IMG/VR virus record: IMGVR_UViG_3300045988_162176
Span: 150,143 to 214,142 of that record
Length of the DNA stretch: 64,000 nt
DNA from: a virus
Reading direction: 5' to 3' (one strand)
Position 1 is the first letter of the stretch. Every line of letters begins with the position of its first letter. The notes under the pieces are model-generated. The model was not told the origin of the DNA. It ran no database searches and was given only the letters and a program-made list of their open reading frames with translations. Shown one piece after another: positions 1 to 59,158 of this stretch. The position numbers and the translations under genes are program-made.

Positions 1-428
1 AAGTTTTCACGCTGTCTCGTACCAGCCACAGCAGTAGCAATACCAGACTTTTGAACATCACTAAAGGATGTCCATTTTTCAGAAATATCATCAATGATAT
101 CATCAACATCTCTGAAATTATCAATAGAATCTCTAACACTAATACCAACAGCTTTTAATACCTGTTCAATTTCATTCAGGTTAGAGAAATCTTCTTGGGA
201 TAACCCCTCTTGTTCAGCTTCCTCTTGGGAAACTTCAAATTTTGTTGCGGCAATTTTTTGGAATCTTGAGTACAATGTCTTGAAGCTCTCACCAACAGTT
301 TCAGGTGTCTTCTGAGAAACTTCCGAAACTGTCGTAATCATTGCCATGTATCTATCCAAACTGGAACCCGCCAATTGCGCTGAGACGTTCGCACGACTCA
401 TTGCAGCAGCTAAGTCACCAGCACTAAT
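1..428 (-). CDS. Giant virion protein, exon 2 (partial, runs off the left edge): continuation of the TP901-type tape measure core
   Basis: Minus-strand translation reads ISAGDLAAAMSRANVSAQLAGSSLDRYMAMITTVSEVSQKTPETVGESFKTLYSRFQK..., a tape-measure core pattern. It is in frame with exon 1 once 429-753 is removed. It is absent from the ORF track because it has no start codon. Confidence 0.75.
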   Translation of the reverse strand, partial: MSAGDLAAAMSRANVSAQLAGSSLDRYMAMITTVSEVSQKTPETVGESFKTLYSRFQKIAATKFEVSQEEAEQEGLSQEDFSNLNEIEQVLKAVGISVRDSIDNFRDVDDIIDDISEKWTSFSDVQKSGIATAVAGTRQREN

Positions 429-753
429 CTGTTATGTTTAAATGATTCGCTAAATCATTCGAGAAAATTCTCCTCATACTTTCATATGAGCACTGACTAT
501 ATCTTCACCCTTATTATAAGGGGCGTACTTTTTCGGAAAATCAATCGCTTATTTCCCTACTCCTTTTTAGGATAGTCGATGGACATTATTCTATTCAAAT
601 CTTCGCTGCTGATTATCTAATCTTTATATTTTTTTAGCATTCACATTTAAGTTTATTTCATCTTTATGTTGTAGCATATAAAGCTCTAAAGATTTCCCAG
701 CAATTAAATACGTTTTCACTCACATATTACTATGTTTGCGACCTATTTTATTA
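429..753 (-). ncRNA. Group I-like intron A (no ORF) interrupting the giant gene
   Basis: Non-coding insert of 325 nt. It starts with in-frame TAA TAA straight after GCT (exon ends in T) and ends in ...AACAG before ATT AGT. It shares sequence blocks with the inserts at 19245-19604 and 26310-26681: GTTGTAG, TTCCAGCAATT, GCTGCTGATTA, TAGTCGxTGxAC. Confidence 0.6.
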
Positions 754-3700
754 AGCCGCCGCCATATCAACCGCAGTTAATTTATCAACAACTTCTCCCA
801 CTTCATCAACAGAAAGTTTCCAACCTTTAAGAACAGAAATTAAATATTCCGTAGCTTTGGCGGAATCAATCATACCAAGAACGCTAAGATTCATGGAATT
901 TTCAACAAGCTGAGAAGCTTCTTGTCCTTCGTAACCAGCACGAAGCCAATCGTTAGCTGCCGTGGCAACTTCTTCTGTACTCTTACCAACTTTACGAGCT
1001 AATGTATTAAAATCAAGCATCATGCTTTGAATCTCTTTATAGCTGTAACCACTTGCAATCTGCAAGTCAACCATTACTGCATTAAGAGACTTAGCACTAT
1101 TCATGATTTGATTAAACATATTTCTAACAGTCATTGCCAATTGATTAGCAATAACATCAATACTTACTAATCTTGCAAAACTGTTAGTAAACGTCTTTCC
1201 TATAGTTTCAAGAACACCTTTTTGCTCTCTATAAGTAGCATTAATTTTAGTAAGCTTAACTTGATGTTGAGCTTGCAAATTAGCTTCCTGTTGTTCGAGC
1301 TTATTAATGGCTTCTTGACTATAGCCCATTTCTTTAAGTTCTTTAACTCTTTCTGCATATACAGTACCCTATTGCTTTAACAAATTCAATTGTTCACTTA
1401 AAGCGGTACGAATATTTTCCTGCTCAAGTTTTTCATATCCTGAAGAATTACTGACTTTTAAATCTGTTCTTTGAATCTCTTCTTGCAACTTCATCTGTTG
1501 CTTAAGATTATTAAGATAATCCTTAATATCTTTATTACCTTGAGAATTTTGGAAACCTGTATTCCTGTTCATTCTATCAGTAATAAATTGAGGTCTATTA
1601 TTTAATTTTTCACCATTCTGATAGTAACCAGTGGTAGCAAATTGAGATTCAGCAAGAATTTTATCCTGTTGAATACCTTGTCCTTTAGAGCCTCTTTCAA
1701 GACCTTCGGCAACAGTTGCCATAGAAGCAGCTTTACCCTTAGTTGTTTCAACAAAAGATTGACCATCCTTTGTAAAGCTTCTAATAATTTGCACGAAAGA
1801 ACGAGCAAAAGCTTCAACACGAGCTTCACCATCTTCAATAATAGCAGAAATATCTCCCGCCCCAGAGTCTTTATCAAAGCCTTCGAATCCGAGTTCAGCA
1901 ACTCTTGTCTTCAAATCACTTGATAAACTATCAAAAGATTTACCTTCAGATTGAGCTTGCTTTAATTTTTCAACAACCTGACTGTATTCAGATTCAGCCA
2001 TCCTAAGATAAGTACTTGCTTGTAAAACACGAGCGGCACGCATCCGTGGGTCATCTTCTCCACCACTGTTAGAGAATTTCCAGTCTGCAACAGTTACATC
2101 TGCGTATTTACCATTAACTTTTTGACCAAAAGTCAAAGCATCCGCAGTACCAGCAAAAGCACGATTACCAATAACTCCACCAAGCTTAAGCTCTTTGAGT
2201 GTGGAACTATTTAACGCACCAGATGTTCTTGCAGCATTAACAACATCACGGGCTCTACCCTGTTGGCGTTGCAAATCTTCCGCTGTTACAGATAAACCAG
2301 CGCCTCCAAGTTGAGGCGATTTTCTAACTTCATCTATTAATTGCTCCATTAACTCATCAGTCATATTGTCGATGTTTTCAACAATAGCATGAGCAAATGT
2401 ACCCAACGCAGAAGCTTTATTACCAGATTGAGTAGTATTCGGGAATTTACTGTAATCTTCATAAGGCGCAGTTGTCACTTGAGTAACAGACCTAAGATTT
2501 CCGCCCTCAGAAGAATAAGTCTTATCACCGACCTTCATAGTTCTGGAATGACCTTCACCAAGTTCACTCACAACATCAGCCGCAATAAATTTAGCCCATT
2601 CGCCACTTGCGTCTTTCAAATTAGCCGCTTTATCAATAGAATTAGTCTGAGAAGCTGTTTGATTTGCTTGAGCAACAGGAGCATTTGCTTTTACTTCAGT
2701 AGCACCATTTACATCAATGTTACCAGTATTAACAATAACTTTACCATTCTGAGCATTAACAACAACATTACCCTTAGCATTAATAACAGAACCTTCAACA
2801 GTTTCTTCTGTGCCATCTTCAGAAACTCTTACCCATTCGCCATTGTCATTAAGATAAGTCTTATCTTTTCTTAATTCACCATTAAAGGTGCGATAAGGGT
2901 CTAATGCTTTAGAATAATTAGTGGCGTCCTTAAGAGAAAGACCCATTGGTTTAAGATAAGCTTCAAAACTATTAAACGCTTCAATAAGATTTTCCATGGT
3001 CGCGCCCTTAAAGGATGCAAATTTACCATTCTCATCAACGGTAGCAATTCCCATCTTTGTAAGAGCATCAATCTAAGCTTTATCTCCACTTGCAATTATT
3101 TGAGAAGCAACAGTTTCAAACTGCTTACCGTCCATTATACTGCCAAGAACATTAAGGTCTTTAGCAATACTTAAGAAGCCCTTTTGGTCATCAGTATCAG
3201 CAAAACGTCCTTCATGAATTGCACTAACCAAATCTTTAACAGCTAATAAAGCTTGGTCTTCACTCATTCCTTCTTTGCCGATTAATCTTGCGTAAATCTT
3301 TTTAGAAGAAATCGCATCCTGTTCAAAAGATTCCATGGTGGCTCTAATAATAGCAGATTGCACAGCAGAAGTTGCACCATTATTGTCGGCAAACCCTGTT
3401 TTGTACATAGCTTCTCTTGCTTTAGTGTCAGCATCAGAGAACAATCCGACGTTTTGGAATGCCATTTTAGCCTGTTCAGATGCATCTTTATTTATCCATT
3501 TCTTAGATAAATTTTTAGCAATCGTATTCCAGCTATCATCTATATCGACTTTTTTATTTTGAGCTTTTTGCTTTTGAATCTGATTCATAATACTTGCAAC
3601 AGTATCATTGTATTTTAAGATATAATCCTCTGCAAGTTTTTCATCTTCACCATATTGTTCATATACCTTAAGAGCCATGCGGAATTTATCACCGTCAAAG

Positions 3701-6700
3701 TCTCCTCGGAACAATTCAGCCAAACCAGCACTAACTCTAATTGTATCGCCAGCAGATTCGTCCAAACCAAGTCTTGCAGTATATCCTTCCATACCTTGAG
3801 TATAAGGATAACGACCCACTTCTGTAGTAAAAGTGTTATTGCCGCTCTTTATCTCACCAATAATAGCGCCAATAATTTCTTCTTCAAATTGATTTATTTC
3901 ATCTTCCGAAAGTTTATTGGTAAACTTTCCATCTTCAAACCGAGGTCTTAAAGACATCGAAGTAATAACTCTTTGTCCACTCTCTTTAATAGATTTTGCT
4001 CTTAAAGTAGAAAAGAGTCTGTTAATATTTTCAAGCCTGTCTTGTTTAGTAGCGGAAGATGTACTGCTCATTAATTCTCTTAAACGCTTAGAAGAAATAT
4101 AAACCGTATTAGCTTGTTCATCTGTTAAATCAGCCAACTTAGAAGTACCCGCCGCAACAGAGAAAGCAGAATAAGGTACATAATTATGAGTAGCTTGTTT
4201 TACCAACTCGGAATCTTTTGTATTGCCAAGTTTATGATAAACATCAGCCGCATATTGCTTTGCTTTCTCAAAAGCTTCTTGGGATTCTGTAGCAGCTTGC
4301 AGTAATGCAGAGTTAGCACTATCAATAGCGCCAGAATAATATTCTCCATCAGGAGACATTGCTGCACCAGCATCTCCAAGCAAATATTTCTTTCCACCAA
4401 TGGCAGAATCAGAAAGATTTAATACAATATTACCACGAGCATAAGCTTCACCTTCAGACCCTTCTAAAGCAGAAAGTTCTTTTTGAAGTTGACGTGCTCT
4501 TTCCATAGCGAAGTTTTGGTATTCCTCCGCACTTATCTTACCAGAATGTCTTAAAGCATTGATGTCAGTAAGAATATCAGAATAAACCTAATCACCAGCT
4601 TGAAGAACTACTTGACCATCTTGAACTCTAAATTCAACATCTTTTGTTCCTTTGGCAGTGGTATAATCTGTAACATTATTAAGAGATTTGTTAGCTGCAA
4701 TTAAATTCTTGCGAACTTTTTGAGCCTCCAAACCTTTTTTGCCATATGTATTATCTTGTTTTTCTTGTTGAGCTTTTAAGCTCTTCAAACCAGCAATAAC
4801 TTTTTCTCTATCTTTAAGATTACTTTGACCAGCAGCAGATTTAGTAATATAATCTAAACTTCTTTGTCTTGCATTTCTTACTTTCCAGTCATCAGTAACA
4901 CGTCCATCTCTTTCAAGTGTATTTGCACTACCATAACCAGAAGCATTAGAATAAGGATAAATATTGTGCTGTCCAATGCCAAGAGAAGCTAATCCTTTAA
5001 TAGAATCATATATTGCCTATGCTTCAAAAGCACTCTTACCAATCCGTTTAAAGATTGCCAATGCAGATTGTTCGATTCCCTTAAAAGAAGCTAACGTTTC
5101 CTCTGGATTAGCAAAAACATCTTCGCCTCGCTTGTTTGTAACAACACCATTTTTCTCATCGGTAATATCAACAAGTAATTTCTTTTCTTCTCCATTCTCT
5201 CCCGTTACAGTTTGAATTTCAAACATCTTCTAAAGGAGAGGAGGTAAATTACTATAAATGTTTTCAAGAGAAGAGCCTTGTTCCAAAGCCTTATCAATAA
5301 TGGTGTTTATTTGACCCATGAACTCAGAATAATAATTACGTTCTTTTACATCATCATTCAGCAAAGTCAAATAATCAGCATCAGCAATAGCATTCTTACC
5401 TCTTGCAGCCCAAAACTGTTTAACAAAATCAGCTTTACTTACTCCATGTTGTTTTTCTGCATCAGCAGTTAAACGTCTACCACCTTCATCAACAAGCTTT
5501 ACACCTTGTTCAACTTGTCTAAGTCTGTCAACCAGTAATTTCCAACCGTTATCAGTTTTCTCAAGACCAACCAGTAAATCCCCCTCATTTACAGAGAAAT
5601 CTTTAGAGAACATCTTAAACTGGTCTTTGCCAACTGTTTGATTAATATCAATAACTGAACCAGTTTGATAATCGCCAGAAGCAAGACTATCAATATCTAC
5701 ACCAAACTGATTTAAGAAATCTAAAACAATATCTTCAGTATTGGTAGCCTTAGACACATTCCTTTGAATACTTTCAGTTTCAGCAATAATCTTGTCTGTA
5801 ACTAAAGCAACATCGGTCATATCTTTCAACATAGAATCTATTCTATGTGTATAATCTTTATCGCTTTCACCAGCCATTTGAGGATTGAAAGATTGATAGT
5901 ACGCTCTTTCAGCTTCATCAAATTCTTTTTGAGTTAAACCATAACTCTTATATCTCTTATGTGTGATATCTGTTCTATCAATACCAGCATCCAAAGCTTG
6001 CTGAGTAGTAGTAACAACTTGACTCATGGCATCAGAAGATGCTTCTCTACTTGCAAGAGCTTTTTCAGATAATCTTAAAGTATCAAAAGCCTGAGATAAA
6101 CTTCTTTGAGTTGCGTCTATACCTTGACCAAAAGGAACATATTGTCTTGAAGATACGGTGTAATTTTTACCAAGAGCAAATTTACCCTCGGATTCACCAG
6201 TATAATCGCTTGGCATCGCCGCACCAATTTCTTTAGCCGCTTTTCTATAATATTTAAAAGCATCACTGGTCATAATGAATTTAACCAGTTCATCAGCTAT
6301 AGTATCTGGGTCTAAATTTTCTTTCATAGCCAACGCCCAAGCATTAGCCATAGCGTCAGTTAATTCTTTACTTGGGTCAAAAGCATTGTAATTTGCTTTA
6401 TACCCTTCGTTATTTCCTGTAAAATAGCCACTTAATGCCTCTTTAACATCTTTTTGATTAAGAGTAGACTGAATTTCTCTAGCGATACTATATTGAGTAG
6501 AACGCATAGCTTCTAATTCGGTTAATTTACCAGAATAGCGAGTATTAGAATCTTGAATGTCTTCTCTTGCTTCAGAACCCATCGTAACAGAAGATACTTT
6601 GTTAATAGCTCTGTTTGCCCCTGATTGCAAACGACGAGAAATTTGGTCGGAAGAATATTTAGTAAAATCTGTATTTCTTAAAATAGAAGTCGCATCTTTA

Positions 6701-8160
6701 ACCTGTAAAGTTTCTGCCGTTTCCATTACTTTGACACCCTTTACTTCAGGAGTGCCATCTTCTTTCAATTTTCCAGTGGGGATAAATTCTGTTGCAACTT
6801 CAGCTTGATTGATTCTACCACCAGCAATTCTACCAGTTTCATCACCAACTGCAAAAGATACTTTTATATTATTCTCTTTTTTCCAATCTGTTGATTTGTA
6901 TTCTTTATCTAAAGGAATAAGCATAGCCTGAATTTCAGAACCATTTCTTCTAAAATAAACAGAATAACCTTTCTTTTCTGCTTCTTCAACAAATGTTGCT
7001 AAGGCATCACGAGTAGTACCATATCCCTTATTACCGCCACCCGTAATATTAGATACATCTTGTCCAGCTCTACTTTTTTGTCTGTTCCTATATTCAGCAC
7101 CAGTTAATGAAGCTTTCGCTCCTTCGTTAAAGCCATTAATTAAAGCATCTAAACTCTTATAGACTTCAACAGAATGACCTTGAATATTTTCTTTGTCAGA
7201 AGCAAAAGTACCACCAAAAGATTCAATTTGCTATTTTGACAAAGCTCCAGAAATTCCACCAGAATTTTTAGCAATTAAATTAAAACTGCTTCTGTATTTT
7301 TCTGCCTCTTTTTTAGCTGTTTCTTCAGTAACATTCCTCTAAGTTTGAATAGATTTGGAAAGCTAATTAATTATAGCCTCCACTCCATCAAAAGTATCAA
7401 AATCTTTAGAAGAAATAGCTTTTACAAAATCAGCTTTAACCGCACTATTAACCATTGTTTTTGGAGTTGTTGGCATTTTAACTGTTTTGCTTTTTGTGGC
7501 TTTTGCAACAGTTGGCTTTTTTGTTCCTATGTTGGTAATCCCCTAATTCAAAGACAAACCAACATCTACAGCCATTTTTTGAACAGCAGTAGCTAATTTG
7601 GCTTCTTCTTTAGAAGTATCAATAGGCGTAAAACCAGATTTCTTTTCTTGAAGTCTTTTTACTCTATATATAAGCTCTTGACCTCTTTCTTGTGCCTTTT
7701 GTGTCAAAGCTTGATAAATAAATTCATAAGCTTTCCTTTGCTCGTCTACACTTCCTTGAAAATTTTCAGCTTGTTTTATCATATCAATAGCCATATCAGC
7801 TTGCTAATTGATATAATCAATACCCTGTTGTTCTAACTATTGATTCTTAGCATCATTTACAGCTATTTTCTTTTTGTTCTTGTTGTTTTGCCCTTGTCTA
7901 CTAGCTTTTAAAGTCTCCGTAGACTTTTTCATATTAGAAATTTGTTGCTCTCTTTGAGCATTCAACATATCAATAACATCGTTAGTTTGAGTGCCATTAT
8001 TAATTAGACGCTTAGTAGCTTCTTGGGCTTTCTTTGTATCTATAGCCTAACCAGTACTCTTACCTTTTTCATCCAAGCCATAAGTTTTTTTTATATCCGA
8101 ATATGCTTTAGCTTGAATATCTTCTATTCTCTATTCTAAACTTTTCAGTAAATCTTCCAT
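754..8160 (-). CDS. Giant virion protein, exon 1: N-terminal two-barrel RNAP-like region (DFDGD at 3688-3702) fused to a tape measure domain; 13 in-frame TAG
   Basis: ATG at 8158-8160 has GGAGG 8 nt upstream. ORF-track fragments 7543-7794, 5230-6924, 5017-5226, 4588-4788, 3073-4506, 1369-3054 and 751-1329 share one frame and are separated only by TAG. I checked every in-frame codon in the inter-fragment gaps (6925-7542, 7795-8160) and the short junctions at 5227-5229, 4789-5016, 4507-4587, 3055-3072 and 1330-1368, and found no TAA or TGA. The C-terminal part (1329 to 754) reads ...LNAVMVDLQIASGYSYKEIQ...VDKLTAVDMAAA, matching a TP901-type tape measure core. Confidence 0.8.
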
Positions 8161-8173
8161 GTATTATTCCTCC

Positions 8174-8824
8174 TTATTTTAATTGAATTCCATATTTTTT
8201 ATAAATCATTGGCTTCAATTCAACCAAATACTATTTTTCATATTCTTGTTGAGCTCTAAAACGAGCTACTCTATAGGTTTCATCTATAGAAGGTAACGTA
8301 CTTAAATCTATTCCTTGATTAATTGGATTAAAATTGTAATAATCCAATCTAACATCTGCAAGCACATCTTCTTGAGAATCTTCGTCCATTTTACCACCTG
8401 ATGATAAAAAATCCTAATCGTCATCCTAAAAAAACTAATCAATAAATAATCCAGCAGCTTCGTCTTCACTTCTGAAATTCTTTACCGTGGATTCTGATAC
8501 TGTATTTGGATTAAATTTTTTCTTTTCCCTATAGTTCTTATTGCTAAATTTGAACTTTGCCGTATTGTAGGTGCAATAAGGTGTAGCATCGCTATTTTGT
8601 CCAAAATACAAAGAAGACATTAAAGAATCTTCGTCATATAAATCTCCATAATAGTTATCAAATACACTTTTAAACACACTTTTATATATTGCTGTATAAC
8701 TATTTAACAATTCAATTTTAATTGCCATCACTCTACTTGGCAACATCTTTTTAGTTGCATCTACAGTTTCTTTTATTTCTTTTTTTAATGCATTTGAAAC
8801 TGCATTTGGTAACACTTGTTCCAT
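8174..8824 (-). CDS. Hypothetical protein; possible tail assembly chaperone by position only. 4 in-frame TAG
   Basis: AAGGAGG RBS and ATG at 8824. ORF 8435-8824 continues through TAGs to a TAA at 8174-8176, just upstream of the giant gene's RBS. Confidence 0.6.
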
Positions 8825-8893
8825 ATATTAACCTCCTTATTTTATTTTAAAAGCTGCACCAAAAAATGATGCAGCTTTATATTTCTTTTTATA

Positions 8894-9610: not shown

Positions 9611-9625
9611 TTTTATTCTCTCCTT

Positions 9626-11125: not shown

Positions 11126-11146
11126 CGTTTCAAATCTCCTTTATTT

Positions 11147-11341: not shown

Positions 11342-11376
11342 TTTTCAAATCTCCTTTTAATTCTTTAAATGTTATT

Positions 11377-13339: not shown

Positions 13340-13359
13340 AAATTCTCTCTTATTTTTAG

Positions 13360-48658: not shown

Positions 48659-49180
48659 CCTGATACCTACGATGTTCTTTATTACGCTGTTTAATGTATT
48701 AATTGTACTACCATTATATAAACTAACTGTATATCCACTCTTGGGATGAACAAATGGGTCAGCCTAAGTATTTGCTCTAACACATTCATCCAAGAACACA
48801 GAAGACGTTCCCAACAAAGAAGCAATATTACCCTTAGCCATATCTTCCATCTTCTGAAAAGTTTCTTGAGACTGGCCTCCACTCGGAGCCATAATATATG
48901 TATTAGTGTTTGGAAGTAAAAGTGCTCTTGACATCATAAAAGGGGCAGCTAAAAACGACTTACCACTGTTACGACCCATAAGCCACACACAGTTTGCAGG
49001 ACACCAACTACTCAGCAAAACATATTTTTGCATATCAGTTAACTATATTTTAAAAAAATCTTCAATAAATCTTGTTGGGTTTGCTCTTCCCCACTAAATT
49101 ATCTTAGTATATTTTTCAAAAATTTCTTTTCTTTTTGGAAGCAGTTCGTAACTAAAGTCATTAAAAATAACATTAATCAT
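48659..49180 (-). CDS. terL: Terminase large subunit, exon 1 (Walker A); 3 in-frame TAG
   Basis: ATG at 49180 overlaps the upstream TAA (TAATG). Contains LMGRNSGKSFLAAPF. In frame with ORF 48764-49033. Confidence 0.7.
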
Positions 49181-50823
49181 TAATAACCACCCCAATTATC
49201 GCCATCATCACCATTTTCTTTGTCGTACTGACGTTTTTCTTCTTCCAATTTTTTCTCAGCTAATTCACGTTTAGCCAATCTTAAATTTTCAGTAAGGGTG
49301 GCGTTTTCTCTCTGCAACGAAAGCAATTTTTTAAGCTAATCTTGACAAGTTTTGTATACTTCCGCTTCACTCATGCTAAGTTGATTGAAAATAGCTGCAA
49401 AACTTGCATCAGCAGCTTGATTAATACTCTTGCTAGTCTCAACATCATACATATTAAGAATAGCATTTTCATACTTCATCTCATTCATCTTAGCCATAAT
49501 ACCAGAGAAAGTATTTTCACCTTTGGCTTTACTAATAGCGTAACGCTCGCCAAAGCCATTATCTCTACTAAAGCTTGTAATTGTTTCGAGTTCTTTTTTC
49601 TTTAATTCAGATAACGCTTTTAATTCTGAAACGGGAGCATCTTCGTCACTTTTCTTTCTATATTTTTCATTTAATTCACGAATATTTTTAAAAGAAAGAA
49701 CAATCTAAATAGCAGCTTGGACTTTAAGTCCATCAAGCTCCATACCCTGTTCCATCATACCAAGTAAATCTTTATAAAGAATTTTTCTATCTTTTTCAAT
49801 TTCAAAATAAAACGGGTCATAACCAACCATCTTGATAACTTGTCTTTTTGCTTCGAGGTCAGCTTTACTCCATTCTTCTTCTAAATCTTCAGGCACATTG
49901 CCTGTATTGCTGTTAATTATTTTATCAGCCTTTGAATCCCCTTTATTTTGATTCACATCAACATCGGGCGATTCCAAAAAAACTTTTCCTTTTAAAGTAG
50001 CACTGCGAGAAATAACACTCATATATTCTTCAACTATATGAGTTTTTCTATCTTTCTCCTCCATTGTTTTTTTAGCCTTAAAATAACTAACATCATCATA
50101 ATATATATTAAGATAACTACAAAGCCATTTCATTGCTTTTTCGCCATCTTTGTCTGCTTTTTCATAGAACAAATATTCGTACAAATTTTTACAACAATCC
50201 ATACAAATATGTGTGTGCATTTTTCCATTAGCTTCTATTCTACCTAAATTCCCCTCATTGTATGCAAGGAAATATTTATCTTGTGGCAATGCTTTTCCAC
50301 AACATGAACATACATATTTATCATACAATGGAACAAACCTATTAAAATATTTTGTCCAATTCTAATAAAGTTTTTGTAAGTATTCGGGTATCTTAGGCTT
50401 GCTCTTTTTCTTTTCTGTCTTTTTAGTAAGATGGGTGCTTAATTGCTCTTTAGCTGAATCGTTAGAAGTATCTATTTCATCATTTATAATTTTATCACAA
50501 TCATCAATAACTTCTTGATACGCTTCTTCATATTCCAAGTATTTCTTATAATCAAGCTATCTTACACTTCCATCTTCTTCTTTATAAAAATTAATAGGGT
50601 CAAAAAAACTATTATAATCAACAGAATCTACAAGATTTGGTGTACCAAAGTCCCCAACAATTTCTTTTAGAGCCTGTTTATGCTCATCTTTTAAAGAATA
50701 TTTCCAAGATTCTCCAAATTCCTCTTTTTTCCTTTGTGTCTCCATTTTCTTTTGAATGGCATCTAATCTTTTCTATTCTTTAGCAATGGCAGCTTTGGCC
50801 CTATTGTTTGTTAATTTAGCCAT
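49180..50823 (-). CDS. Hypothetical DNA-packaging-region protein (possible small terminase subunit by position) with a Cys cluster; 5 in-frame TAG
   Basis: ATG at 50823. Fragments 50557-50745 and 49705-50328 share one frame. I checked the 49180-49704 extension and the gaps between fragments for TAA/TGA and found none. TAA stop at 49180. Confidence 0.5.
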
Positions 50824-50864
50824 TTAACACACCTTCTAAACCTTTTAATTCCAAAAAAATTTAA

Positions 50865-51068
50865 TTAATCTACAATTTGAAACCAGAAATCTCCTGCTTT
50901 CTAATCAACTGGTTGTTCTTTACTGATAGCAATATCAGGCAAATTATCCACTGTTTCCGCAATATTCTTATTATTTTCATTAATATTATTACGGAAAGTG
51001 TTGGCTAATCCAACTGTCACTTCCTTGATTAGAGTTTTAAGAGACTTTCTGCGAGCAGGTCCAGCCAT
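50865..51068 (-). CDS. Small hypothetical protein; 1 in-frame TAG. Missed by the ORF track
   Basis: ATG at 51068 after AGAAGGA. ...ISKEQPVD*KAGDFWFQIVD. Confidence 0.4.
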
Positions 51069-51098
51069 AAAATTCACCATCCTTCTCTTAATAATTAA

Positions 51099-51857
51099 TT
51101 ACTTCTTAGGTTTTCCCTAAAGCAATAACAACCAAACATCTCTGTTAATTACACCGTTCTATCTCAAACCATACATCTTTTGGTATTGTTTTACTACATT
51201 TTCCAGCTATTCATCGAAAATTGTGTCTGTCCCAGCATTAAACCCTAAAGTATTAAAAAGAATCTTAGCCATTTTAACAGCTTCATTATTATTGTCTATG
51301 TTTAAATAAGGTACTTGACCAGCCATAGTTCTAATATTGGTTTTGTCAACTGGAACTTTATAACCGATTGCAGCTTTAGCATAATTTGGTAAACCAAAAC
51401 CTCTAATATATTTACCATCAATTTGCATTGTGCGACTCTTAACTTCACTGGAATAATTTCCTTCTAAAACTTTAAAGGTGTTTCCACTTACGTCACAAAC
51501 CATGCCAACATGGTCAGCTTCTCCAGTACATTCTCCAACTCCACTGTCTTGCCAATCGTAAAAACACAAATCTCCAATTTGAGGTTTATAATTATCTCCC
51601 TCTTCCCATCTTCCATTCTTTTGGTAGAGAGCTATCATTCTATTACAACTACATTCAGGATAGATATATTCCGTCAAATTTAATCTCTCTCCAAGAGCAG
51701 AAACGGTAGCTGCGCACCAAGGTTCTGTATACAGCATCATATGGTTTGCTGGTAAGGGAGTTATTCTATTATAAATATCAATAATCCATTTATGTTTGCC
51801 ATTAGCCACACTAAAACCAACCCAGCGATAAAACCATTCAACTGTCGTTTTTCTCAA
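51099..51857 (-). CDS. CHAP-domain peptidoglycan hydrolase with a C-terminal PG_binding_1-like domain; 3 in-frame TAG
   Basis: EPWCAATVS...EADHVGMV gives the CHAP Cys/His pair. The C-terminal AVKMAKILFNTLGFNAG...FDE*LENVVKQYQKMYGLR*NGVINRDVWLLLL is complete only with TAG read-through. Confidence 0.65.
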
Positions 51858-52683
51858 CTGCTATTCCGTCATCGTTAATTTCTCCTTGCCAAGCTTCGTT
51901 TCTCTTATTTTTGAGTTCAGCTTGTCGTTTCATCCACTCTTTATGCTCTTTTGCATGTTGCAAACGAGCAGCTTGCCTTTCCTTGACTTTTTCAGGGTCG
52001 GCTAAATATGGTTTCCAGTTTTTTTGAAAATCTTCATGAGTTTGCCACCATTCAGCTTTCATGTCTTCCAAAATATCTTCAAATGGTCGCTCAATCAAAT
52101 CTTCTTCAGCAACTCCATTTTCTCTTTGTTTTTCTAGGTCCATTTGCCTCATTAAAGCATGACGAGCTTCTTGATGTTTAATCCTTTTTCTTTCATTGCT
52201 CGCCTCTCTTGCTTTTTGATGAGGAGACTGAGGACCTTTTTTTTCTTCATCCGCTTTTTGACACAACTCTTGAATTTTTTCTTCAGACAAGCCTTCGTAT
52301 TCTGGAATTTCAGGGTCTCCAACATCTTGTCTATACTTCCTAGCTAACGAAGTATATCTATTTTCAGGCCAAGCAAAGAATTCATTTGCATAAACTCTAT
52401 CACAGTTTTTAGCCTCTCTACTAAATTTAATCATTGGATATCCTAAAAATGCAGAAGACCAAGCTTTTTGTTTTCTAATTTCAGGAAGCATTGAAACATA
52501 TCCTGTAATTTTATGAGATGGTTTGGTAGTTCCATAAATAGAACCAAACACAAAATCAAGCTAATCTTCCATTGCAATGGTATCAAGAATTTTGTATTCT
52601 AAAGATTCAATTACATTAGAAACAGTTTCTTTATCATACCCTGTTTCCTCCATAATTGCTTTAATCAATCTAAATCTTGTCAT
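51838..52683 (-). CDS. Protein with an HU/IHF-like N-terminal region and a long charged C-terminus; 1 in-frame TAG
   Basis: MTRFRLIKAIMEETGYDKETVSNVIESLEYKILDTIAMED*LDFVFGSIYG parallels the HU N-terminus (...ELIKAIAE.TGLSK..V..V......I...). Confidence 0.45.
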
Positions 52684-52705
52684 TGTATCACCTATATACA
52701 TGATT

Positions 52706-52824
52706 TTAGCTCCAAGTCATCAAAAGACAACTTGGAGCTAACATTCATTCTGTACAAACTTCTTTATCCAAAAGAAGTCTACTTTGTCGTTCACTTTATA
52801 CAAGTTTCTTTATCCGAAAGAAAC
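52706..52824 (-). promoter_or_regulatory. Three consecutive hairpins between the two HU-like genes
   Basis: GTTTCTTT/AAAGAAAC (52804-52824), ACTTCTTT/AAAGAAGT (52758-52778) and a 12-bp stem TTAGCTCCAAGT/ACTTGGAGCTAA (52706-52741). The first two belong to a duplicated unit of about 45 nt. Confidence 0.55.
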
Positions 52825-52848
52825 CTACTTTGTAAATTATTCCTTCTA

Positions 52849-53124
52849 TTAAGCCTTTGCTACAGAAGAAAACTTAGCATAAGGAACACCGTCACGAGCG
52901 GGAATATCAATAGCCTCACCCGTTGCAGGATTGTGACCCTTGCGAGCATCACGATGTTTACCACCCACAGTCAAAACCGAACCAACCTTAACCGCATCGT
53001 TCTTAGCAATAACATCGAGGAGAACCTCGCTCATGCCCTTGATAACAGCGTCAATATCCTTCTTGGAAACATCCGCACAAGCCTCAGTGTCCTTAATAGC
53101 AGCAATAAATTCATTCTTAACCAT
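52849..53124 (-). CDS. HU-family DNA-binding protein
   Basis: MVKNEFIAAIKDTEACADVSKKDIDAVIKGMSEVLLDVI...GHNPATGEAIDIPARDGVPYAKFS fits the HU pattern. AAAGGAG RBS. Confidence 0.8.
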   Translation of the reverse strand: MVKNEFIAAIKDTEACADVSKKDIDAVIKGMSEVLLDVIAKNDAVKVGSVLTVGGKHRDARKGHNPATGEAIDIPARDGVPYAKFSSVAKA

Positions 53125-53218
53125 AATATTAAATACTCCTTTAAATCTTTTAAATTTTAATTTTTAAAATTACCTTTTAAAACCTTTATTTATCAAGGTT
53201 TCCCCTTGACTCGCTTTA

Positions 53219-53247
53219 TATATAACACAATTTTATATCTTTGTCAA
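53219..53247 (-). promoter_or_regulatory. Sigma70-like promoter for the HU gene
   Basis: On minus: cTTGACAAAGAT..., a 17-nt spacer, then TATATA. Confidence 0.55.
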
Positions 53248-53292
53248 GAGTTTTTCGAAAAATTTTTCCAAAAATTTTAGAAACAGTTTCTA

Positions 53293-53727
53293 TCAATCTT
53301 CAGTATAAGCTTCAACAACCTTATGGGGCTTATACCCACCCTTAGATTTGTTATTGCTCCAAATACCGAGCTCAAGCATAATCTTAGAAATCTTCTTGCA
53401 ACGATAAACGCCGTATGAATCTTGGAAACAAACAGCATTGACCTTATATTCACCCCAACGCTGAGTATTCGAATCATTCAAAATCTTCTTTTCAACAAGC
53501 TTGTTATACTGATTAACACTAATTCTCTGAAGATTCAAATCATCATACTTACCCAAGAAGAGCATAATTTCAGGTTCTTCAGCAACATAAATTGTCTTAT
53601 CACGACCTACATGTTCTCTATTAGTAACAGTATAATTCGCATCCTGTGGATTCAAACCAACCTGTCTATTCTTAAGAAGACCAACTCTCTCTAATTCTTT
53701 ACGCTCGTATTTAGAAACCTTAATCAT
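53293..53727 (-). CDS. Hypothetical protein
   Basis: Intact ORF with a TGA stop. Confidence 0.55.
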   Translation of the reverse strand: MIKVSKYERKELERVGLLKNRQVGLNPQDANYTVTNREHVGRDKTIYVAEEPEIMLFLGKYDDLNLQRISVNQYNKLVEKKILNDSNTQRWGEYKVNAVCFQDSYGVYRCKKISKIMLELGIWSNNKSKGGYKPHKVVEAYTED

Positions 53728-53872
53728 AAATTAATCAATCCTTTTTTATTTTTAAATTTGGAGAAATTTTATTCCTCTCTCCTTTTATTTTTTTACTGTT
53801 TTTTGAAAAATTGTCATTTTCGCCATATAAAATATGGGCTTATTTTTTATATTTTTTCGGAGGATACCCTTT

Positions 53873-54595
53873 TTAATTATTTAATAATAAACCGCCTTCG
53901 GTTGCATTGTAACCGTTATAATAACTGTTAAATTCTTTAATATAATACTTTTCCCAATAAGAAGCAGCTTCTTCACATATGTTTTCTTTTAATATATTAT
54001 GTTGAAAATTTTTCCATCCATATTTCTTAATAGCATTGTAAAATTTCTTTTGTTTGTAATAACCGCTGCCATTTTTCCAGCATTTAAAAGGGTCTTGTTG
54101 AGTTATACCAATATAACTTTTACCATTGGGAGAAATGTGTTGATAAACTATCCAATTACCTTTTTCATTGTTCCAATCTATACTGTTTTTAAACTTCAAA
54201 AGTTCTTTTGTTAAATTTACGCCCACTTTTGTAAAAGTGGAAGTAATAGTATGATATTCTCTAATGAAAAAATCTTTTTCTTCTTTTAATTCTTCTTCTG
54301 AAAATGGTTCGCTCTTTAAAAATGTTGTTTCTTTATAAATAAAAGAATTATACAGTTTAACATTATTAACAAAACCTCTTTTATATAGCGCTTCACAAAA
54401 AGCAGAATAACATTTTTCTTTTATTAAGTACAACTGCTTTTCAGATAAAGAATTATCATTCATTTTTAACATAAAAGATTTTGTTATTTTTAGCGACCCT
54501 ATCCATTTATACTGTATTATACATTCTTTTCTTTTAATGTCATCATATTCTTTTAATTTACCGATACATAAAAATAATAAATAATTATTTTTCAT
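53873..54595 (-). CDS. Protein with a C-terminal GIY-YIG nuclease domain
   Basis: NWIVYQHISPNGKSYIGIT...YNAIKKYGWKNFQHNIL...EKYYIKEF...GYNATEGG. Confidence 0.6.
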   Translation of the reverse strand: MKNNYLLFLCIGKLKEYDDIKRKECIIQYKWIGSLKITKSFMLKMNDNSLSEKQLYLIKEKCYSAFCEALYKRGFVNNVKLYNSFIYKETTFLKSEPFSEEELKEEKDFFIREYHTITSTFTKVGVNLTKELLKFKNSIDWNNEKGNWIVYQHISPNGKSYIGITQQDPFKCWKNGSGYYKQKKFYNAIKKYGWKNFQHNILKENICEEAASYWEKYYIKEFNSYYNGYNATEGGLLLNN

Positions 54596-55562
54596 CTTCT
54601 TTAATTTGATTGAAGCAATCTCGACATATAATGTCTGTTAATTTAGTATACTTGTTGATTTCTATTTCTTTTCCGCATTTTGAACATTTAACTTTTCTTA
54701 AATTTTCTCCCTCTTTAAAGATTTTCTTCTTACCAAGTAATTTTGCACAATCTTTACAATATTTAGGAGGTCTTCCTCTTTTTTCAGGGGCGTTCTTTTT
54801 TGTAAAAAATACTGTTTTCCCGCAATTCTTGCACTTGTAGCTCGGATATTTTTGACTTTTTATCCAATTTCCGCAATTATATAAATCGTCACCGCTTAAT
54901 AAAATTCTGTTTTTATCCGTAACAGGAATTTTAAATACATCATTGTCCATAAATTTAGGTATAATTCCTAAACCATGATTTATATCAATATATCCCATAT
55001 CATACAGCAAATTCCTTTCATTTTTTAAGGAAAAGCTAGCTGTTAAACCAGCATCTTGCTTAAATCTTTTTCGGTCTCTATCAGTCCAATAAATTCTATC
55101 TGGCTTTTCTAAATAATTTTCTTGAACTTTTACCCATACAAAAATAGTAAAAAGAAATTGTATTCTTCTTATATTCATGGGTTTCTTAGAAATCTTTACA
55201 TTTGACCTTCTGTTTTTTAAAGATTCCAACTCTTCTTGTGTTAGACTGGTTTCACTTAAATTTAAAAACCAGTCTAACACTTCTTCGGAAAATTCTATTT
55301 GCTTAATTTGTCTTAAGGGGTCTTCTTTTTTCCAAGCTTTTTCAAAAATGTTGTTAAAAGTCGCATAATGAACATTTTTGTTCCACCCTACAACATAGCG
55401 TTCACATTTTTCTTTGGCTTTTAATTTGGCTTCTGCTTTTTTATCCCCTTCAAGCTTATAATATCTAATAAGAAGAATTAAATCTCTTTTCCATTCTTTC
55501 TAAGAGAGACCTGACTATAATACATTTTTAATATAACCAACTTCATCATATATATCAATCAT
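54585..55562 (-). CDS. Hypothetical protein with C-terminal multi-CxxC zinc-ribbons; 2 in-frame TAG
   Basis: ATG at 55562 after GAAGGAG, overlapping the upstream TGA. CKNCGK...CKDCAK...CSKCGK...CRDC. Confidence 0.5.
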
Positions 55563-58416
55563 CTGTTATTTCTTCTCCTTCTAAATCGCTAACTAAATAT
55601 CTCTCTATAGAAAAATTATCATATAAAAATTTTAAAGAACCATTATCATTCTTTAAAGGATAATAAAAGCTAGTTGTTTTTTCTTTTAAATTTTCGTAAA
55701 TTTGTTTACCAGCAACAGCCCATAAAATATTCTTATTATAAGAGGGTTTATCGACATAAAATAAATATACTAAATGATTAGCCAATTGCTCAGAATTTGA
55801 ACAAATATCTTCTAATTCATTTTTTAGATTTTGATATAAAATTTCTCTATCAAGATTTTCTTGAAAACCTACTCTTGTAACCATATTTGAGTAAATTTGC
55901 TTTCTTTTTTCTTCCCAGCTCTTAACTGTGTTGACAACTTTTTCTAGAATTTGCTGATATAAAGCTCTGTTTAAAACAAAGTCTTTACTCTGTAAAGATT
56001 TATAATCAAAATCTCCATTTGACTTTATCTTTTTCTTAATTTGAAAATCTATACTTTCTATATATTTACAAATTTTATTCATTACACAAGGAGAATCTAT
56101 AACTGGGTAATAATAATGATAGTAATTTATAAAGTATTTTTGCTCTTGAGTTAATTCGTCTTCTTTTTTAATTAAAAGTTCATCCAATGTCATTGCAAAT
56201 CTAATTTGACAATCCTCATTGCTCTTGTTAATAAAATCTCTTAACTCTTTATTGGTTTTATTATATTTATATTTAAAGAAATAAGGCTTTTTCTCGGCTA
56301 AGATTCTATTGTAAAAATCTTTCTTTTCTTTTTCTTCTAAACTTTCGTCTTTAGTGTGATGCTGATATTGTTTCCAAATAGTTGCTTCAGCCTTAACATT
56401 TTCGCCAATCTTCGTCTTATCAATCTAGCGGCTCTAGCTGCCACAGCACATTTTAACTCTGTCTTCGAGCAAATTTCTTTCAGGTGTTCCCTTTTCAAAA
56501 TTTGCGATTAAAGCGCAAAATGTTGTTGAAACATTAGTAATTTGACCAATTCTTGTACCAAAACTAAAAGTGTCAGTAAAAAATAAATCATCTTCTGTAA
56601 ATATTTTCTTATGAGGCTTTTTAGGCTGATAGGTAACTACTCTTTGATTAGGAAATTTACCATTGATAACTTCTGGCCTCACCAAATTTGCTGCAATATC
56701 CATGTCAAAATCGCTCCCAGAGAAATTCATTGTGTAAATACCATGAATATTAGTTATCATACCAGTATAAGAAAACTTAAAATATTTTTCTATTTTTCTA
56801 ACAACTTCTTCATCAGACATTCCCATATTTCTGTCAATTACTTCCTCAGAAGAAAAATTGTAACGATAATCTTTATCAAGTTTATATTTATTCTTTGCTA
56901 TATACCATTCACTAAAATGAGTCATTGGACTTCTTGCACAGGCAATTCTTTCCTCATCCTTTTTAGCCCAATAATTCATATAAAATTCCCGTTCTTTAAG
57001 TAAGCCTGTTACTTTTTGACCAGTAATCCATTGCATTAAACCGTAAGAATCTGGCACAATAACACTAAAATTTCCTTCGCAATTTATTTTACCTAAACAA
57101 GCAAGCTGAATTCTTTTTGCAATTAAATCTCTAATTTTTTCTTTAGAGTATTTATCGTTAATTAAAGTTTGATTGAGAATTAAACTTTTCAGCCAATAAT
57201 CTTCACTATTGCTCATAAATTTAGAAATTCGCTCTTTATCATAGCTATCTCCCATTAAATATAAAAGTGTATAGTAAACATTATCTCCGCTTACGCCAGA
57301 AATATAGTCTACCGTGTCTTGGCATAAAGTTTTAATATCTTCGTCAGATAAATTTAATGTCTGCAAGAATTGATAGTTCATGGTAAGAACTTTTTTATCT
57401 TCTCTTGGAGTGTATTTAGTTACTCCAAAATAAATTCCGTTCTTATCTCCATTTTCTTCCAAACTTTCCTGAGAATCCCAACTATCCCATAGTTTAACTT
57501 GACCTTCTGTAAGAATAACATCTATTTCTCTCAGGTCTCGAATTTTACCGTAAACATCTTTGATTAAATAATTACCATTATTTTCTTCTTTACACCATTC
57601 TATAAAATCAAATTCGTTTACCATTCCTTTAGTAAACGCATATCTAATACAGAATTGACAAGGAGTGTAATCTTCACCAAGGTCTTTTCCCCATTGTTCA
57701 GCCATTTGAGGACTGATTAAACCAGAACCATCAAATCTATTAAATTCAATGTCAATTGTCCTTGGTTCTATAATGTCATCTTGGTCTATTGGTTGTTCAA
57801 TAATAAAGTCAACATCAACCATTTTATTTTCTAAATAATCAGGAACAACACAAAAACGGGGTTTTGTTACTTCTTTAGTCGCACTTGAATATAAACCAAA
57901 ATATGCATTATATTTACTAGGAGCTAATGGATGATTTAAATCCCTTCCATTATCAAGTCTTCTCTTTAATTCTGTTTTTATGGTTTCTTCACAAAAAACA
58001 ACCGTGCTAACTCTTGCTTGAGAAGCAGAGCAAGAAAGCCTTTTGTAAGTTTTTCCATTGAATACAAAACCTTTTTTATAAATCTTTTCATATTCCTTTA
58101 CACTATCCATTGTAACAGTAATATACTCAGGAATATACATCATATTATAAATTTTGCTTTGTAATTCTTTTACTTTTTCACGATTTGTTTTGCTATTTTT
58201 CTTTCTCTTTAATCTATCTCTTTCAGAGTACCATTCTTCAAGCTGTACTCTATCAATCTTCTAACCAGTTATATCACGAATACTCTTTAGCATTTGACTA
58301 TCTGCTAAAGAAACAATTAGATTGCTCTTTAAACAATCTTGAAAACTAATGTCTAAATTATAGCCGTTTTCTTTAATTAATGCACTGTTAAGCTTAACGG
58401 TGTAAAATAAACGCAC
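55555..58416 (-). CDS. YonO / eukaryotic-RdRP-like single-subunit two-barrel RNA polymerase; 3 in-frame TAG
   Basis: GTG at 58416 after GAAGGAAGG. Fragments 56434-58143 and 55555-56193 are in frame. DFDMD at 56698-56712 within NFSGSDFDMDIA. Upstream lie ARSPMTHFSEW and QFCIRYAFTKGMV (57619-57657). Confidence 0.65.
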
Positions 58417-58441
58417 TTAGTTACCTTCCTTCGCTGGAATT

Positions 58442-59158
58442 TTAAATAATTTGACTAACCTCGGTAATCATATCCATAATATCAAAACCATCAAGGTCAA
58501 TATCTTCAATATCTAATTTTGTTATAAATTCTAAAATTTCAAAAACTTGCGAAATATTATCTACAATATATAAATTTTCAAGGTTCTCCGTTTCAACTTT
58601 AGGTCGATTAAATCTTGTCTCTTTTCCATTCCTTACAAGAATCTTTAAATCTGCATCAGTTCTATTAAGAAAACTATAATTATCATCAATTTGAATCCGT
58701 CCTAACATATGGACATCTTCTTTCTTCTCTCCATGACCTAATCCAAAATACCGCCATTTCGATTCGTTGCGTTTAAAAAACGGAATCTTATTTAAGTAAT
58801 CAAGTTTTTTCTTTAATGATTCTTTTGAGCCTTTTGTAAGTAATATCCAATTATATTGTTGCCAAATTCCTCTTTCATCATTTTCAGAATCTTCTAAAAC
58901 TTTCATTAGTGCTTCATTTGGTTTGACTGATGACCAAAACTCTTCTGATTCATAGATTTCACTAACTTGTTCTTTAGTTAAATTTCTATAAATACTTTTA
59001 TATCCCCAGTCAACCAAATCATCTAAAGTCTTATTTAAACCATATCGCTAATTTAAAATAGCTACTACTGCTACTGAACTATCTAACAAAACATCATCTA
59101 CATCTAAAAAAATTGTCCTCTTATTAAGGTCTATATCTATATTTTTTACAATCTCCAT
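58442..59158 (-). CDS. HAD-superfamily hydrolase (5'-nucleotidase-like); 1 in-frame TAG
   Basis: IFLDVDDVLLDS is the DxDxV motif. The start is uncertain: the frame stays open through a TAG up to an ATG near 59271. Confidence 0.5.

What the first reader, a model, noticed from the sequence alone, without database searches (positions are those of the whole stretch)
1..59158. TAG is read as a sense codon across the minus-strand block (stop-codon recoding)
Seen directly:
- Adjacent ORF-track fragments on the minus strand share a frame and are separated by a single CTA (= TAG). Examples: 3073, 4588, 5017, 5230, 1369, 32865, 32595, 32343, 31800, 25887, 25857, 14739.
- Only the first fragment of each chain has an SD site.
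- Conserved domains span the TAGs: the GIY-YIG core at 10784, the PG_binding domain at 51207, the KYG repeat SPR*IRESQEKAK*TCLEKYG at 25857-25889, and the ClpP-like N-terminus.
- Every gene end I checked (more than 35) is TAA or TGA, usually followed by the next RBS. No gene end I checked is TAG.

My hand count gives roughly 90 in-frame TAGs. In the KYG repeats the TAG positions align with K/L/S/Q and K/N/E. That fits a polar residue such as Gln, as in known TAG-to-Gln phages, but the amino acid is not established. TAG recoding itself is already described in gut phages. Its value here is that all other annotation depends on it.
Basis: partly seen in the sequence, partly recalled or inferred. 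Interest (0 to 1): 0.7.

Follow-up and report, generated by a model that had tools for sequence, protein, structure and literature searches.

The report
TAG-to-glutamine recoding in gut phage
This window comes from a roughly 210-kb human-gut phage whose minus-strand genes (RNA polymerase, recombinase, virion and lysis genes) read the stop codon TAG as glutamine, while its presumed early genes avoid TAG entirely; this is a real and well-supported example of a phenomenon already described in gut phages.

Summary
No gene ends at TAG.

- **ORF length:** treating TAG as sense raises minus-strand ORFs of at least 600 nt from 28.1 to 42.8 kb. The controls barely move.
- **Domains:** five Pfam domains run across TAGs.
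- **Amino acid:** In relatives, window TAGs align mainly with TAG, CAA and CAG. Gln beats every other residue by 40 log-likelihood units. Two portal TAGs sit at Gln positions invariant in 19 homologues, and these are CAA in a relative with no in-frame TAG.
- **Scope:** recoding is module-specific. The adjoining plus-strand block has 52 genes. It has no TAG stops and 8 in-frame TAGs, 7 of them in one HNH endonuclease. This fits a mid-infection code switch.
- **Agent not found:** I saw no CUA tRNA and no release-factor gene in about 80% of the genome. A tRNA array in close relatives runs off the retrievable sequence.

This is a new member of a known kind (code 15 phages), and interest is modest.

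The parts
1..59290 (-). Minus-strand gene block read with TAG as Gln. It holds 56 complete ORF models plus a partial one at 1-431, with 96 in-frame TAGs; ends are 45 TAA, 11 TGA and no TAG.
59757..63767 (+). First 7 genes of a divergently transcribed, code-neutral block with no in-frame TAG and no TAG stop. In relatives the block continues for about 32 kb: 52 genes, with 8 in-frame TAGs of which 7 lie in one HNH endonuclease.
751..8163 (-). First exon of a giant virion protein (2,469 codons, 13 TAGs, including 1369, 3073, 4588, 5017 and 5230). It is a single 4,328-codon ORF with 28 TAGs in relative L014.
9626..11125 (-). GIY-YIG homing-endonuclease-like gene with 7 TAGs. The TAG at 10784 lies inside the GIY-YIG domain.
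11377..12375 (-). Tyrosine-recombinase-like gene with 3 TAGs. The TAG at codon 46 is conserved as TAG in all 10 relatives.
14682..15338 (-). ClpP-like protease with TAGs at 15240 and 14739. The second lies inside the CLP_protease domain and is CAG or CAA in 9 of 10 relatives.
19710..20717 (-). Gene with 7 TAGs. Three of these sites are CAA or CAG in all three of the more distant relatives, and a fourth is CAA in one of them.
25269..26291 (-). DUF7487/DUF559 homing endonuclease (the 'KYG repeat' protein) inside a group I intron. TAGs are at 26241, 25887, 25857 and 25293.
31251..33236 (-). Portal-like gene with 6 TAGs. The TAGs at 32595 and 31800 fall on Gln positions that are invariant in 19 of 19 homologues.
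51099..51872 (-). CHAP + PG_binding_1 endolysin with 4 TAGs. The TAGs at 51207 and 51159 lie inside the PG_binding_1 domain.
55555..58416 (-). YonO-type (PF05183) single-subunit RNA polymerase-like gene with 3 TAGs.
40177..45640 (-). TAG-free run of 7 genes inside the recoded block (1,592 codons, 8.9 TAGs expected, P(0)=1.4e-4, GC 0.38). It contains tail-fibre-like genes with an Mtd_N domain.

Best explanation
The window is part of a roughly 206-220 kb SPbeta-like phage from the human gut. The lineage carries a YonO-type RNA polymerase, and its relatives carry YonB, YonD and YorF homologues.

Its minus-strand block (RNA polymerase, recombinase, ClpP, virion, packaging and lysis genes, and homing endonucleases) is written in genetic code 15. 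TAG encodes glutamine, and only TAA and TGA terminate.

The divergently transcribed plus-strand block of small genes, presumed early, contains neither sense TAGs nor TAG stops. It gives the same proteins under the host's standard code and under code 15.

The most likely mechanism is the published code-switch model:
1. Early genes are translated by the unmodified host.
2. A phage-supplied amber-suppressor tRNA, charged as Gln by host enzymes and possibly helped by interference with RF1, then makes TAG readable.
3. Only then can TAG-containing genes yield full-length proteins.

Shown here: TAG is sense, it means Gln, recoding is module-specific, and it is ancestral to the whole family with rapid TAG/CAR turnover. 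Inferred, not shown: the suppressor tRNA, any release-factor manipulation, the timing of expression, and that the host uses the standard code.
For: **ORF length.** TAG-as-sense gives a large ORF gain on the minus strand only; both controls are flat.

**Counts.** 96 in-frame TAGs, and no TAG among 56 gene ends.

**Domains.** Five Pfam domains run through TAGs.

**Translation starts.** Shine-Dalgarno motifs occur at gene starts but not after TAGs.

**Codons in relatives.** Opposite 46 window TAG sites in 10 related loci the codons are TAG 171, CAA 36, CAG 22, GAA 11, with the rest rare. In reverse, relatives' TAGs face window CAA 42, CAG 24, AAA 18, GAA 15. CAA is two mutations away from TAG yet is the commonest partner, so the signal reflects amino-acid identity and not mutational proximity.

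**Likelihood.** An empirical substitution table built from the same alignments gives Gln -180.6, Lys -221.4, Glu -227.4. Gln makes up only 3.5% of residues.

**Portal.** TAGs at 32595 and 31800 sit on Gln positions invariant in 19 of 19 homologues (52-95% identity). In locus L061, 17 genes have no in-frame TAG, and both positions there are CAA.

**Ancestry.** Relatives down to 54% amino-acid identity carry the same TAG density but share only 5-6 sites with the window.

**Plus-strand block.** 52 genes and 8,279 codons have 8 in-frame TAGs, against about 46 expected at the minus-block rate. Seven of the 8 are in one HNH endonuclease. There are no TAG stops.

**Independent gene calls.** The public protein collection already reads through these TAGs, for example 275-aa and 912-aa products.

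**Literature.** The model and the TAG-to-Gln assignment match published work on recoded gut phages.
Against: **No suppressor found.**
- No tRNA with a CUA anticodon turned up in the window with ARAGORN, or with Rfam at E up to 5.
- None turned up in about 170 kb of the 206-214 kb genome walked in up to 18 relatives.
- The first 8 kb or so of a tRNA array in close relatives holds at least 13 tRNAs, none of them CUA.

**No release factor found.** No GGQ-motif release-factor gene appears in the same sequence.

**Site-level and distribution limits.**
- Not all TAG sites align with Gln. Lys, Glu and Ala are also seen, as expected for variable Gln positions, but this limits certainty at single sites.
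- TAG use is uneven (chi-square p = 6e-8). Long TAG-free runs fall in capsid-module and tail-fibre genes, so 'late genes are recoded' is only roughly true.
- Five TAGs lie within 12 codons of an ORF end. ORF length alone cannot separate these from terminators; one of them is CAG or CAA in relatives.

**No direct evidence.** There are no peptide data.
Confidence: 0.9

Rival explanations
1. Standard code with broken genes. Under this view the in-frame TAGs are real stops, from pseudogenes, assembly or sequencing errors, or naturally split genes, and the fragments are separate or dead products.
For: Under code 11 the block still has 66 ORFs of at least 300 nt. Some genes really are split, but by introns.
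Against: - Only TAG interrupts frames; TAA and TGA never do, at 0 versus 96.
- The same TAGs recur in independent assemblies from many samples.
- Protein conservation continues across them, and domains span them.
- Fragments after a TAG lack Shine-Dalgarno sites.
- TAG alternates specifically with CAA and CAG.
Confidence: 0.01
2. TAG is sense but encodes an amino acid other than Gln, such as pyrrolysine, Lys, Glu, Tyr or Trp, or is decoded ambiguously.
For: Some TAG sites align with Lys, Glu or Ala in relatives. No charged tRNA has been identified.
Against: - Gln is favoured by 40 log-likelihood units over the next residue.
- TAGs sit at invariant-Gln portal positions that are CAA in a relative with no in-frame TAG.
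- No pyl genes were seen in the sequence covered.
- TAT/TAC, one mutation from TAG, are almost never the partner codon, at 2 of 300.
Confidence: 0.03
3. The host itself reads TAG as Gln, so the phage simply matches its host. There would be no code switch and no regulatory role.
For: No phage suppressor tRNA or RF2 was found in about 80% of the genome.
Against: - The presumed early block avoids TAG both as sense and as stop, with 1 TAG outside a mobile HNH gene in about 7,900 codons. That pattern is expected only if these genes must be read correctly under a code where TAG is a stop.
- As far as I know, no bacterium with TAG as Gln has been described.
- Published surveys place such phages on standard-code Firmicutes and Bacteroidetes.
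Confidence: 0.04
4. Partial, context-dependent readthrough. TAG would remain a (leaky) stop, so each recoded gene makes mostly truncated product plus some full-length protein, and the phage encodes no dedicated suppressor.
For: No suppressor was found. TAG is a minority Gln codon: 96 TAG against 602 CAA plus CAG. It is absent from the capsid-module run that contains the intron-split capsid-like gene, and from the tail-fibre run.
Against: - Genes with 7 to 28 TAGs would give essentially no full-length product under leaky readthrough.
- These include a giant virion protein, the portal-like gene, the terminase-like gene and the endolysin.
- TAG is never used as a terminator in any of more than 100 genes, which argues that it has lost its stop meaning.
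Confidence: 0.02

Closest known systems
Code 15 (TAG to Gln) recoded gut phages: crAss-like and Lak phages, and the large recoded clades named Jade, Sapphire and Agate (Borges et al., bioRxiv 10.1101/2021.08.26.457843; Peters et al. 2022, PMC9523058)
   Same: - In-frame TAG aligns with Gln.
- TAG is not used as a terminator.
- Recoding is concentrated in structural and lysis modules spread over a large genome, while other modules stay compatible with the standard code.
- Homing endonucleases carry the recoded codon.
   Different: - Membership of a particular named clade could not be tested, because no reference sequences were available.
- No suppressor tRNA or RF2 was seen in the roughly 80% of the genome examined. 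The paper itself detects suppressors in only about 40% of TAG-recoded genomes.
- The RNA polymerase and recombinase-type genes are recoded here too, not only structural and lysis genes.
SPbeta-like phages of Bacillota (YonO RNA polymerase lineage)
   Same: - A PF05183 YonO-type RNA polymerase.
- Relatives carry YonB, YonD_N and YorF Pfam families.
- Many small early genes, and many intron or homing-endonuclease insertions.
- A Gram-positive-type endolysin with CHAP, PG_binding_1 and SH3-like domains.
   Different: - SPbeta itself is about 134 kb, temperate and uses the standard code (from my own knowledge).
- No DNA-level match, and almost no protein-level match, to any deposited phage record.
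- The nearest deposited relative, MT835469, shares 38% amino-acid identity with the beta-CASP nuclease gene at 15893-17341 and shows no gain from reading TAG as sense.
Recoded jumbo phages surveyed in PMC13037316 (2026)
   Same: - Hallmark genes are fragmented under code 11 and restored under code 15.
- tRNA arrays contain intron-bearing tRNAs.
- Not every recoded genome has a detectable suppressor.
   Different: That survey is a catalogue. This particular lineage and its code-neutral early block are not singled out there, as far as I could read.

Membership tests
Code 15 (TAG to Gln) stop-codon-recoded phages | Many in-frame TAGs in conserved genes, and ORFs that lengthen specifically when TAG is read as sense | tested here: met
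   96 in-frame TAGs. Minus-strand ORFs of at least 600 nt rise from 28.1 to 42.8 kb, with flat controls. Pfam domains span TAGs.
Code 15 (TAG to Gln) stop-codon-recoded phages | TAG is not used as a terminator | tested here: met
   0 of 56 minus-strand and 0 of 52 plus-strand gene ends are TAG. Five TAGs near ORF ends cannot be resolved individually.
Code 15 (TAG to Gln) stop-codon-recoded phages | TAG aligns with glutamine in homologues | tested here: met
   CAA and CAG are the main non-TAG partner codons. Likelihood favours Gln by 40 log units. Invariant-Gln portal positions are CAA in a relative with no in-frame TAG.
Code 15 (TAG to Gln) stop-codon-recoded phages | Phage-encoded suppressor tRNA with a CUA anticodon | tested here: inconclusive
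   None in the window, and none in about 170 kb of relatives. The tRNA array next to a Thg1-like gene is only partly readable; at least 13 tRNAs were seen, none CUA. About 36 kb remains unseen.
Code 15 (TAG to Gln) stop-codon-recoded phages | Recoded late modules alongside modules that are compatible with the standard code | tested here: met
   The minus block has 5.6 TAGs per 1,000 codons. The plus block has 1 TAG outside a mobile HNH gene in about 7,900 codons. Timing of expression was not tested.
Code 15 (TAG to Gln) stop-codon-recoded phages | Accessory code-change genes (RF2, aminoacyl-tRNA synthetase); present in some members only | tested here: not met
   A GGQ-motif scan of all fetched family loci found no release factor. 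This is not a universal feature of the group.
Code 15 (TAG to Gln) stop-codon-recoded phages | Peptides with Gln at TAG positions | not testable with these tools
   Needs metaproteomics, as done in PMC9523058.
Pyrrolysine decoding of TAG | pylT/pylS genes, with TAG at a few specific sites in methyltransferase-type genes | tested here: not met
   There are 96 sites across unrelated genes, aligned with Gln. No tRNA with CUA was seen.
SPbeta-like phages | YonO-type RNA polymerase and SPbeta-specific structural and replication families | tested here: met
   PF05183 on the 912/953-aa product. YonB and YonD_N lie next to the portal homologue of a relative. YorF is present in L092. The resemblance is at family level only, and there is no close sequence relative.

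The most novel reading that the evidence does not exclude
This phage family may decode about 14% of its glutamine codons as TAG without a canonical phage-encoded CUA suppressor tRNA or release factor. It could rely on a host factor, on a co-infecting element, or on an unconventional tRNA. One candidate is the conserved Gln-type tRNA gene, which carries an insertion of about 50 nt next to its anticodon and lies in the array beside a Thg1-like tRNA-repair enzyme.
Probability: 0.12. Interest if true: 0.65.

Novelty: new member of a known kind. Interest (0 to 1): 0.3.

Why it matters
**Practical.** Every annotation of this window depends on the code. Under code 11 the portal-like gene, terminase-like gene, endolysin, RNA polymerase and a giant virion protein of roughly 4,300 residues all fall apart into fragments. 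Under code 15 they are intact, and the amino acid to insert at TAG is Gln.

**Biological.** The window is a clean example of module-specific recoding in an SPbeta-like phage of gut Firmicutes: a recoded block lies next to a strictly TAG-free block, and homing endonucleases carry TAG even inside the TAG-free block. This supports the idea that the code switch gates expression.

It adds no new principle. The agent of the switch is the only open point.

Tried and rejected
**Searches of deposited phages**
- Megablast of 49 kb of the window against deposited phage genomes found nothing.
- tblastn with the terminase C-terminal part found nothing.
- The beta-CASP nuclease found only a distant relative, MT835469, which shows no gain from reading TAG as sense. 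I downloaded it whole; it carries 4 ordinary tRNAs.

**Hunt for the suppressor tRNA**
- I used all 8 viral-collection scans, the metagenome scan and the genome scan to walk outward from both ends of the window.
- ARAGORN found nothing in any family locus until a tRNA array was reached indirectly, through Thg1 homologues.
- ARAGORN with introns allowed and a lowered threshold gave only noise.
- Rfam at E up to 5 found no tRNA-like hit in the window.

**Attempted shortcuts**
- Using homing-endonuclease paralogues to jump to unseen parts of the genome led to unrelated phages.
- Looking up Thg1 homologues of more distant phages did the same.

**Other checks**
- The drum RNA hit at 15729-15825 was checked as a possible odd tRNA and is not one.
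- The Gln-type tRNA with the insertion has anticodon UUG, and there is no CUA anywhere in the insertion.
- PHROGs and Pfam gave little functional annotation for the TAG-free structural genes.
Full report
**What the window is.** The window is 64 kb at 33% GC. One long minus-strand gene block runs from the window start to 59290, and a divergent plus-strand block starts at 59757. GC skew flips at about 60 kb.

- A window protein is encoded on a 214,176-bp ENA metagenome contig. That contig is 99.8% identical to the window over 10.6 kb.
- More than 15 related contigs of 206-220 kb exist in IMG/VR and in human-gut assemblies.
- One of these contigs is binned with an 'uncultured Clostridium sp.' MAG.
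- The lineage is SPbeta-like. It has a PF05183 YonO-type RNA polymerase, and relatives carry YonB, YonD_N and YorF families.
- It has no close relative among deposited phage genomes.

**Checking the observation.**

- With TAA and TGA as the only stops, the minus strand resolves into 56 ORF models carrying 96 in-frame TAGs.
- Reading TAG as sense raises minus-strand ORFs of at least 600 nt from 28.1 to 42.8 kb, and the longest ORF from 2.0 to 7.4 kb.
- The same change on the plus strand adds 0.7 kb. Making TGA sense on the minus strand adds 2.5 kb, although TGA is more frequent there.
- Inside the ORF models the in-frame counts are TAG 96, TAA 0 and TGA 0.
- Five Pfam domains run across TAGs: GIY-YIG, PG_binding_1, DUF7487, CLP_protease and Phage_integrase.
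- A GGAG/GAGG Shine-Dalgarno core precedes 35 of 56 gene starts, but only 1 of 82 first start codons after a TAG.

The observation and its chance controls hold.

**Which amino acid.** I aligned window proteins to code-15 ORFs of ten related loci covering 5.9-27.3 kb of the window.

- Codons opposite 46 window TAGs are TAG 171, CAA 36, CAG 22 and GAA 11, with the rest rare. In reverse, relatives' TAGs face window CAA 42, CAG 24, AAA 18 and GAA 15.
- CAA is two mutations from TAG, so the pattern reflects the amino acid and not mutational proximity.
- A likelihood test with a substitution table built from the same alignments gives Gln -180.6, Lys -221.4 and Glu -227.4. Gln makes up only 3.5% of residues.
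- Independently, 19 portal homologues (52-95% identity) all have Gln at two of the five portal TAG positions tested, window 32595 and 31800.
- In locus L061, where 17 genes have no in-frame TAG, both of those positions are CAA.

TAG therefore encodes Gln, and it makes up about 14% of Gln codons in the block.

**Extent and evolution.**

- Relatives down to 54% amino-acid identity carry the same TAG density but share only 5-6 of about 30 sites with the window. The recoding is therefore ancestral to the family, and TAG and CAR interchange quickly.
- TAG use inside the block is uneven (chi-square p = 6e-8). TAG-free runs fall at 40177-45640 (tail-fibre-like genes with an Mtd_N domain and higher GC), at 26680-29773 and at 22615-25248 (capsid module).
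- The plus-strand block is different in kind. Over about 32 kb, 52 genes and 8,279 codons, there are no TAG stops and only 8 in-frame TAGs. Seven of these are in one HNH homing endonuclease.
- These genes read identically under both codes. That is the published signature of phages that start infection under the host's standard code and switch later.

**Mechanism: what is shown and what is inferred.** Shown: TAG is sense, it means Gln, and recoding is module-specific. Inferred: a suppressor tRNA charged as Gln, possibly with RF1 interference.

- The window has no tRNA by ARAGORN, or by Rfam even at E up to 5.
- I walked about 170 kb of the genome in relatives, using all available scans. No tRNA appeared.
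- A tRNA array then turned up just downstream of a Thg1-like gene.
- In two close relatives its first 8 kb or so holds Leu-UAA, Pro-UGG, Arg-CCU, Val-UAC, Ser-GCU, Ile-GAU, Glu-UUC, Tyr-GUA, Leu-CAA, Leu-UAG and Ala-UGC.
- It also holds a Gln-type tRNA with an insertion of about 50 nt after UUG. None of these has a CUA anticodon.
- The array runs off both loci, and about 36 kb of the genome stayed out of reach.
- No GGQ-motif release factor occurs in the family sequence covered.
- Published surveys detect suppressors in only 40-60% of recoded phage genomes. The gap is therefore unremarkable, but it is real.

**Rivals.**

- *Broken genes under the standard code.* Excluded by the TAG-only interruptions, their recurrence in independent assemblies, conservation across them and the CAR alternation.
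- *Another amino acid.* Disfavoured by 40 log units and by the invariant-Gln sites.
- *A TAG=Gln host.* Hard to reconcile with the strict avoidance of TAG in the early block.
- *Leaky readthrough.* It cannot deliver proteins carrying 7 to 28 TAGs.

**Comparison and verdict.** This is genetic code 15 as described for crAss-like phages, Lak phages and the large recoded clades Jade, Sapphire and Agate. Genome size and the share of recoded genes resemble Jade or Sapphire, but membership of a named clade could not be tested. It is a new member of a known kind. It is not surprising to a specialist, so interest is 0.3. The only reading with real novelty is decoding without a canonical phage suppressor, which I put at about 12%.

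Noticed in passing
window 26364-26723 (-), with 25269-26291 and exons 26680-27195 / 24637-25248: A group I intron (Rfam, 60 bits) carrying a DUF7487/DUF559 homing endonuclease splits a capsid-module gene (phrog_4088). The two exons form one uninterrupted ORF of 384-386 aa in relatives L005, L007, L008 and L012.
   Followed up: yes
window 473-763 (-): A group I intron without an ORF splits a giant virion protein. Relative L014 has it as a single 4,328-codon ORF. So the TAA at 751 is not a true gene end.
   Followed up: partly
window 19288-19599 (-): A third group I intron sits just upstream of the ORF at 18217-19248. Relatives without it have only a 57-nt spacer between the two flanking genes, so the intron seems to interrupt the very 5' end of that gene or its leader.
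   Followed up: partly
window 46054-49195 (-): A terminase-like gene appears split into an N-terminal ATPase part (48602-49195) and a C-terminal part (46054-47307) by a GIY-YIG/NUMOD3 endonuclease gene (47689-48609). Rfam reports no intron there.
   Followed up: no
window 15729-15825 (-): A 'drum' RNA motif (RF02958, 44.7 bits against a gathering score of 43) lies in the 480-nt gap between the beta-CASP nuclease gene and the ClpP-like gene.
   Followed up: partly
window 751-8163 (-), near residue 1500 of the product: The giant protein contains an 'RGDFDGDKF' motif, reminiscent of the catalytic aspartate loop of multisubunit-type RNA polymerases. Its C-terminus looks like a tape-measure protein. 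Neither feature was tested.
   Followed up: no
L001 10648-11874 (equivalent to about 22-1,250 nt past the window end, + strand): An HNH endonuclease gene with 7 in-frame TAGs sits inside the otherwise TAG-free plus-strand block. It would be translatable only after the code switch. Borges et al. report the analogous case for a TGA-recoded phage.
   Followed up: partly
window 40177-45640 (-): Seven consecutive TAG-free genes with higher GC (0.38). Several start with Mtd_N-like (major tropism determinant) N-termini. Two independent assemblies end at positions equivalent to about 43.6-44.5 kb of the window, which suggests either a hypervariable region or a genome end there.
   Followed up: partly
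L132 12421-20141 and L130 12091-20026 (close relatives, outside the window): A tRNA array of at least 13 genes lies next to Thg1-like, PARP/WGR, UvrD and cysteine-desulfurase-like genes. It includes weak YrlA (Y RNA-like) hits.
   Followed up: partly
L132 18363-18484; L130 19172-19293: A Gln-type tRNA gene (Rfam, 55 bits) has an insertion of about 50 nt forming an 8-bp hairpin directly after the UUG anticodon. It is 97% conserved between the two relatives while the flanks diverge. ARAGORN misses it.
   Followed up: partly
L092 3402-3479 (124-kb SPbeta-like contig, distant relative): A tRNA with an 8-nt anticodon loop, UGUCUAGC, which contains CUA. In the same locus 0 of 31 genes end in TAG. 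It may be an amber suppressor in a sister lineage.
   Followed up: partly
L091 8652-9026 (211-kb contig, not this family): A 124-aa protein with a release-factor GGQ domain (PF00472, ArfB-like) sits among small early-type phage genes.
   Followed up: no
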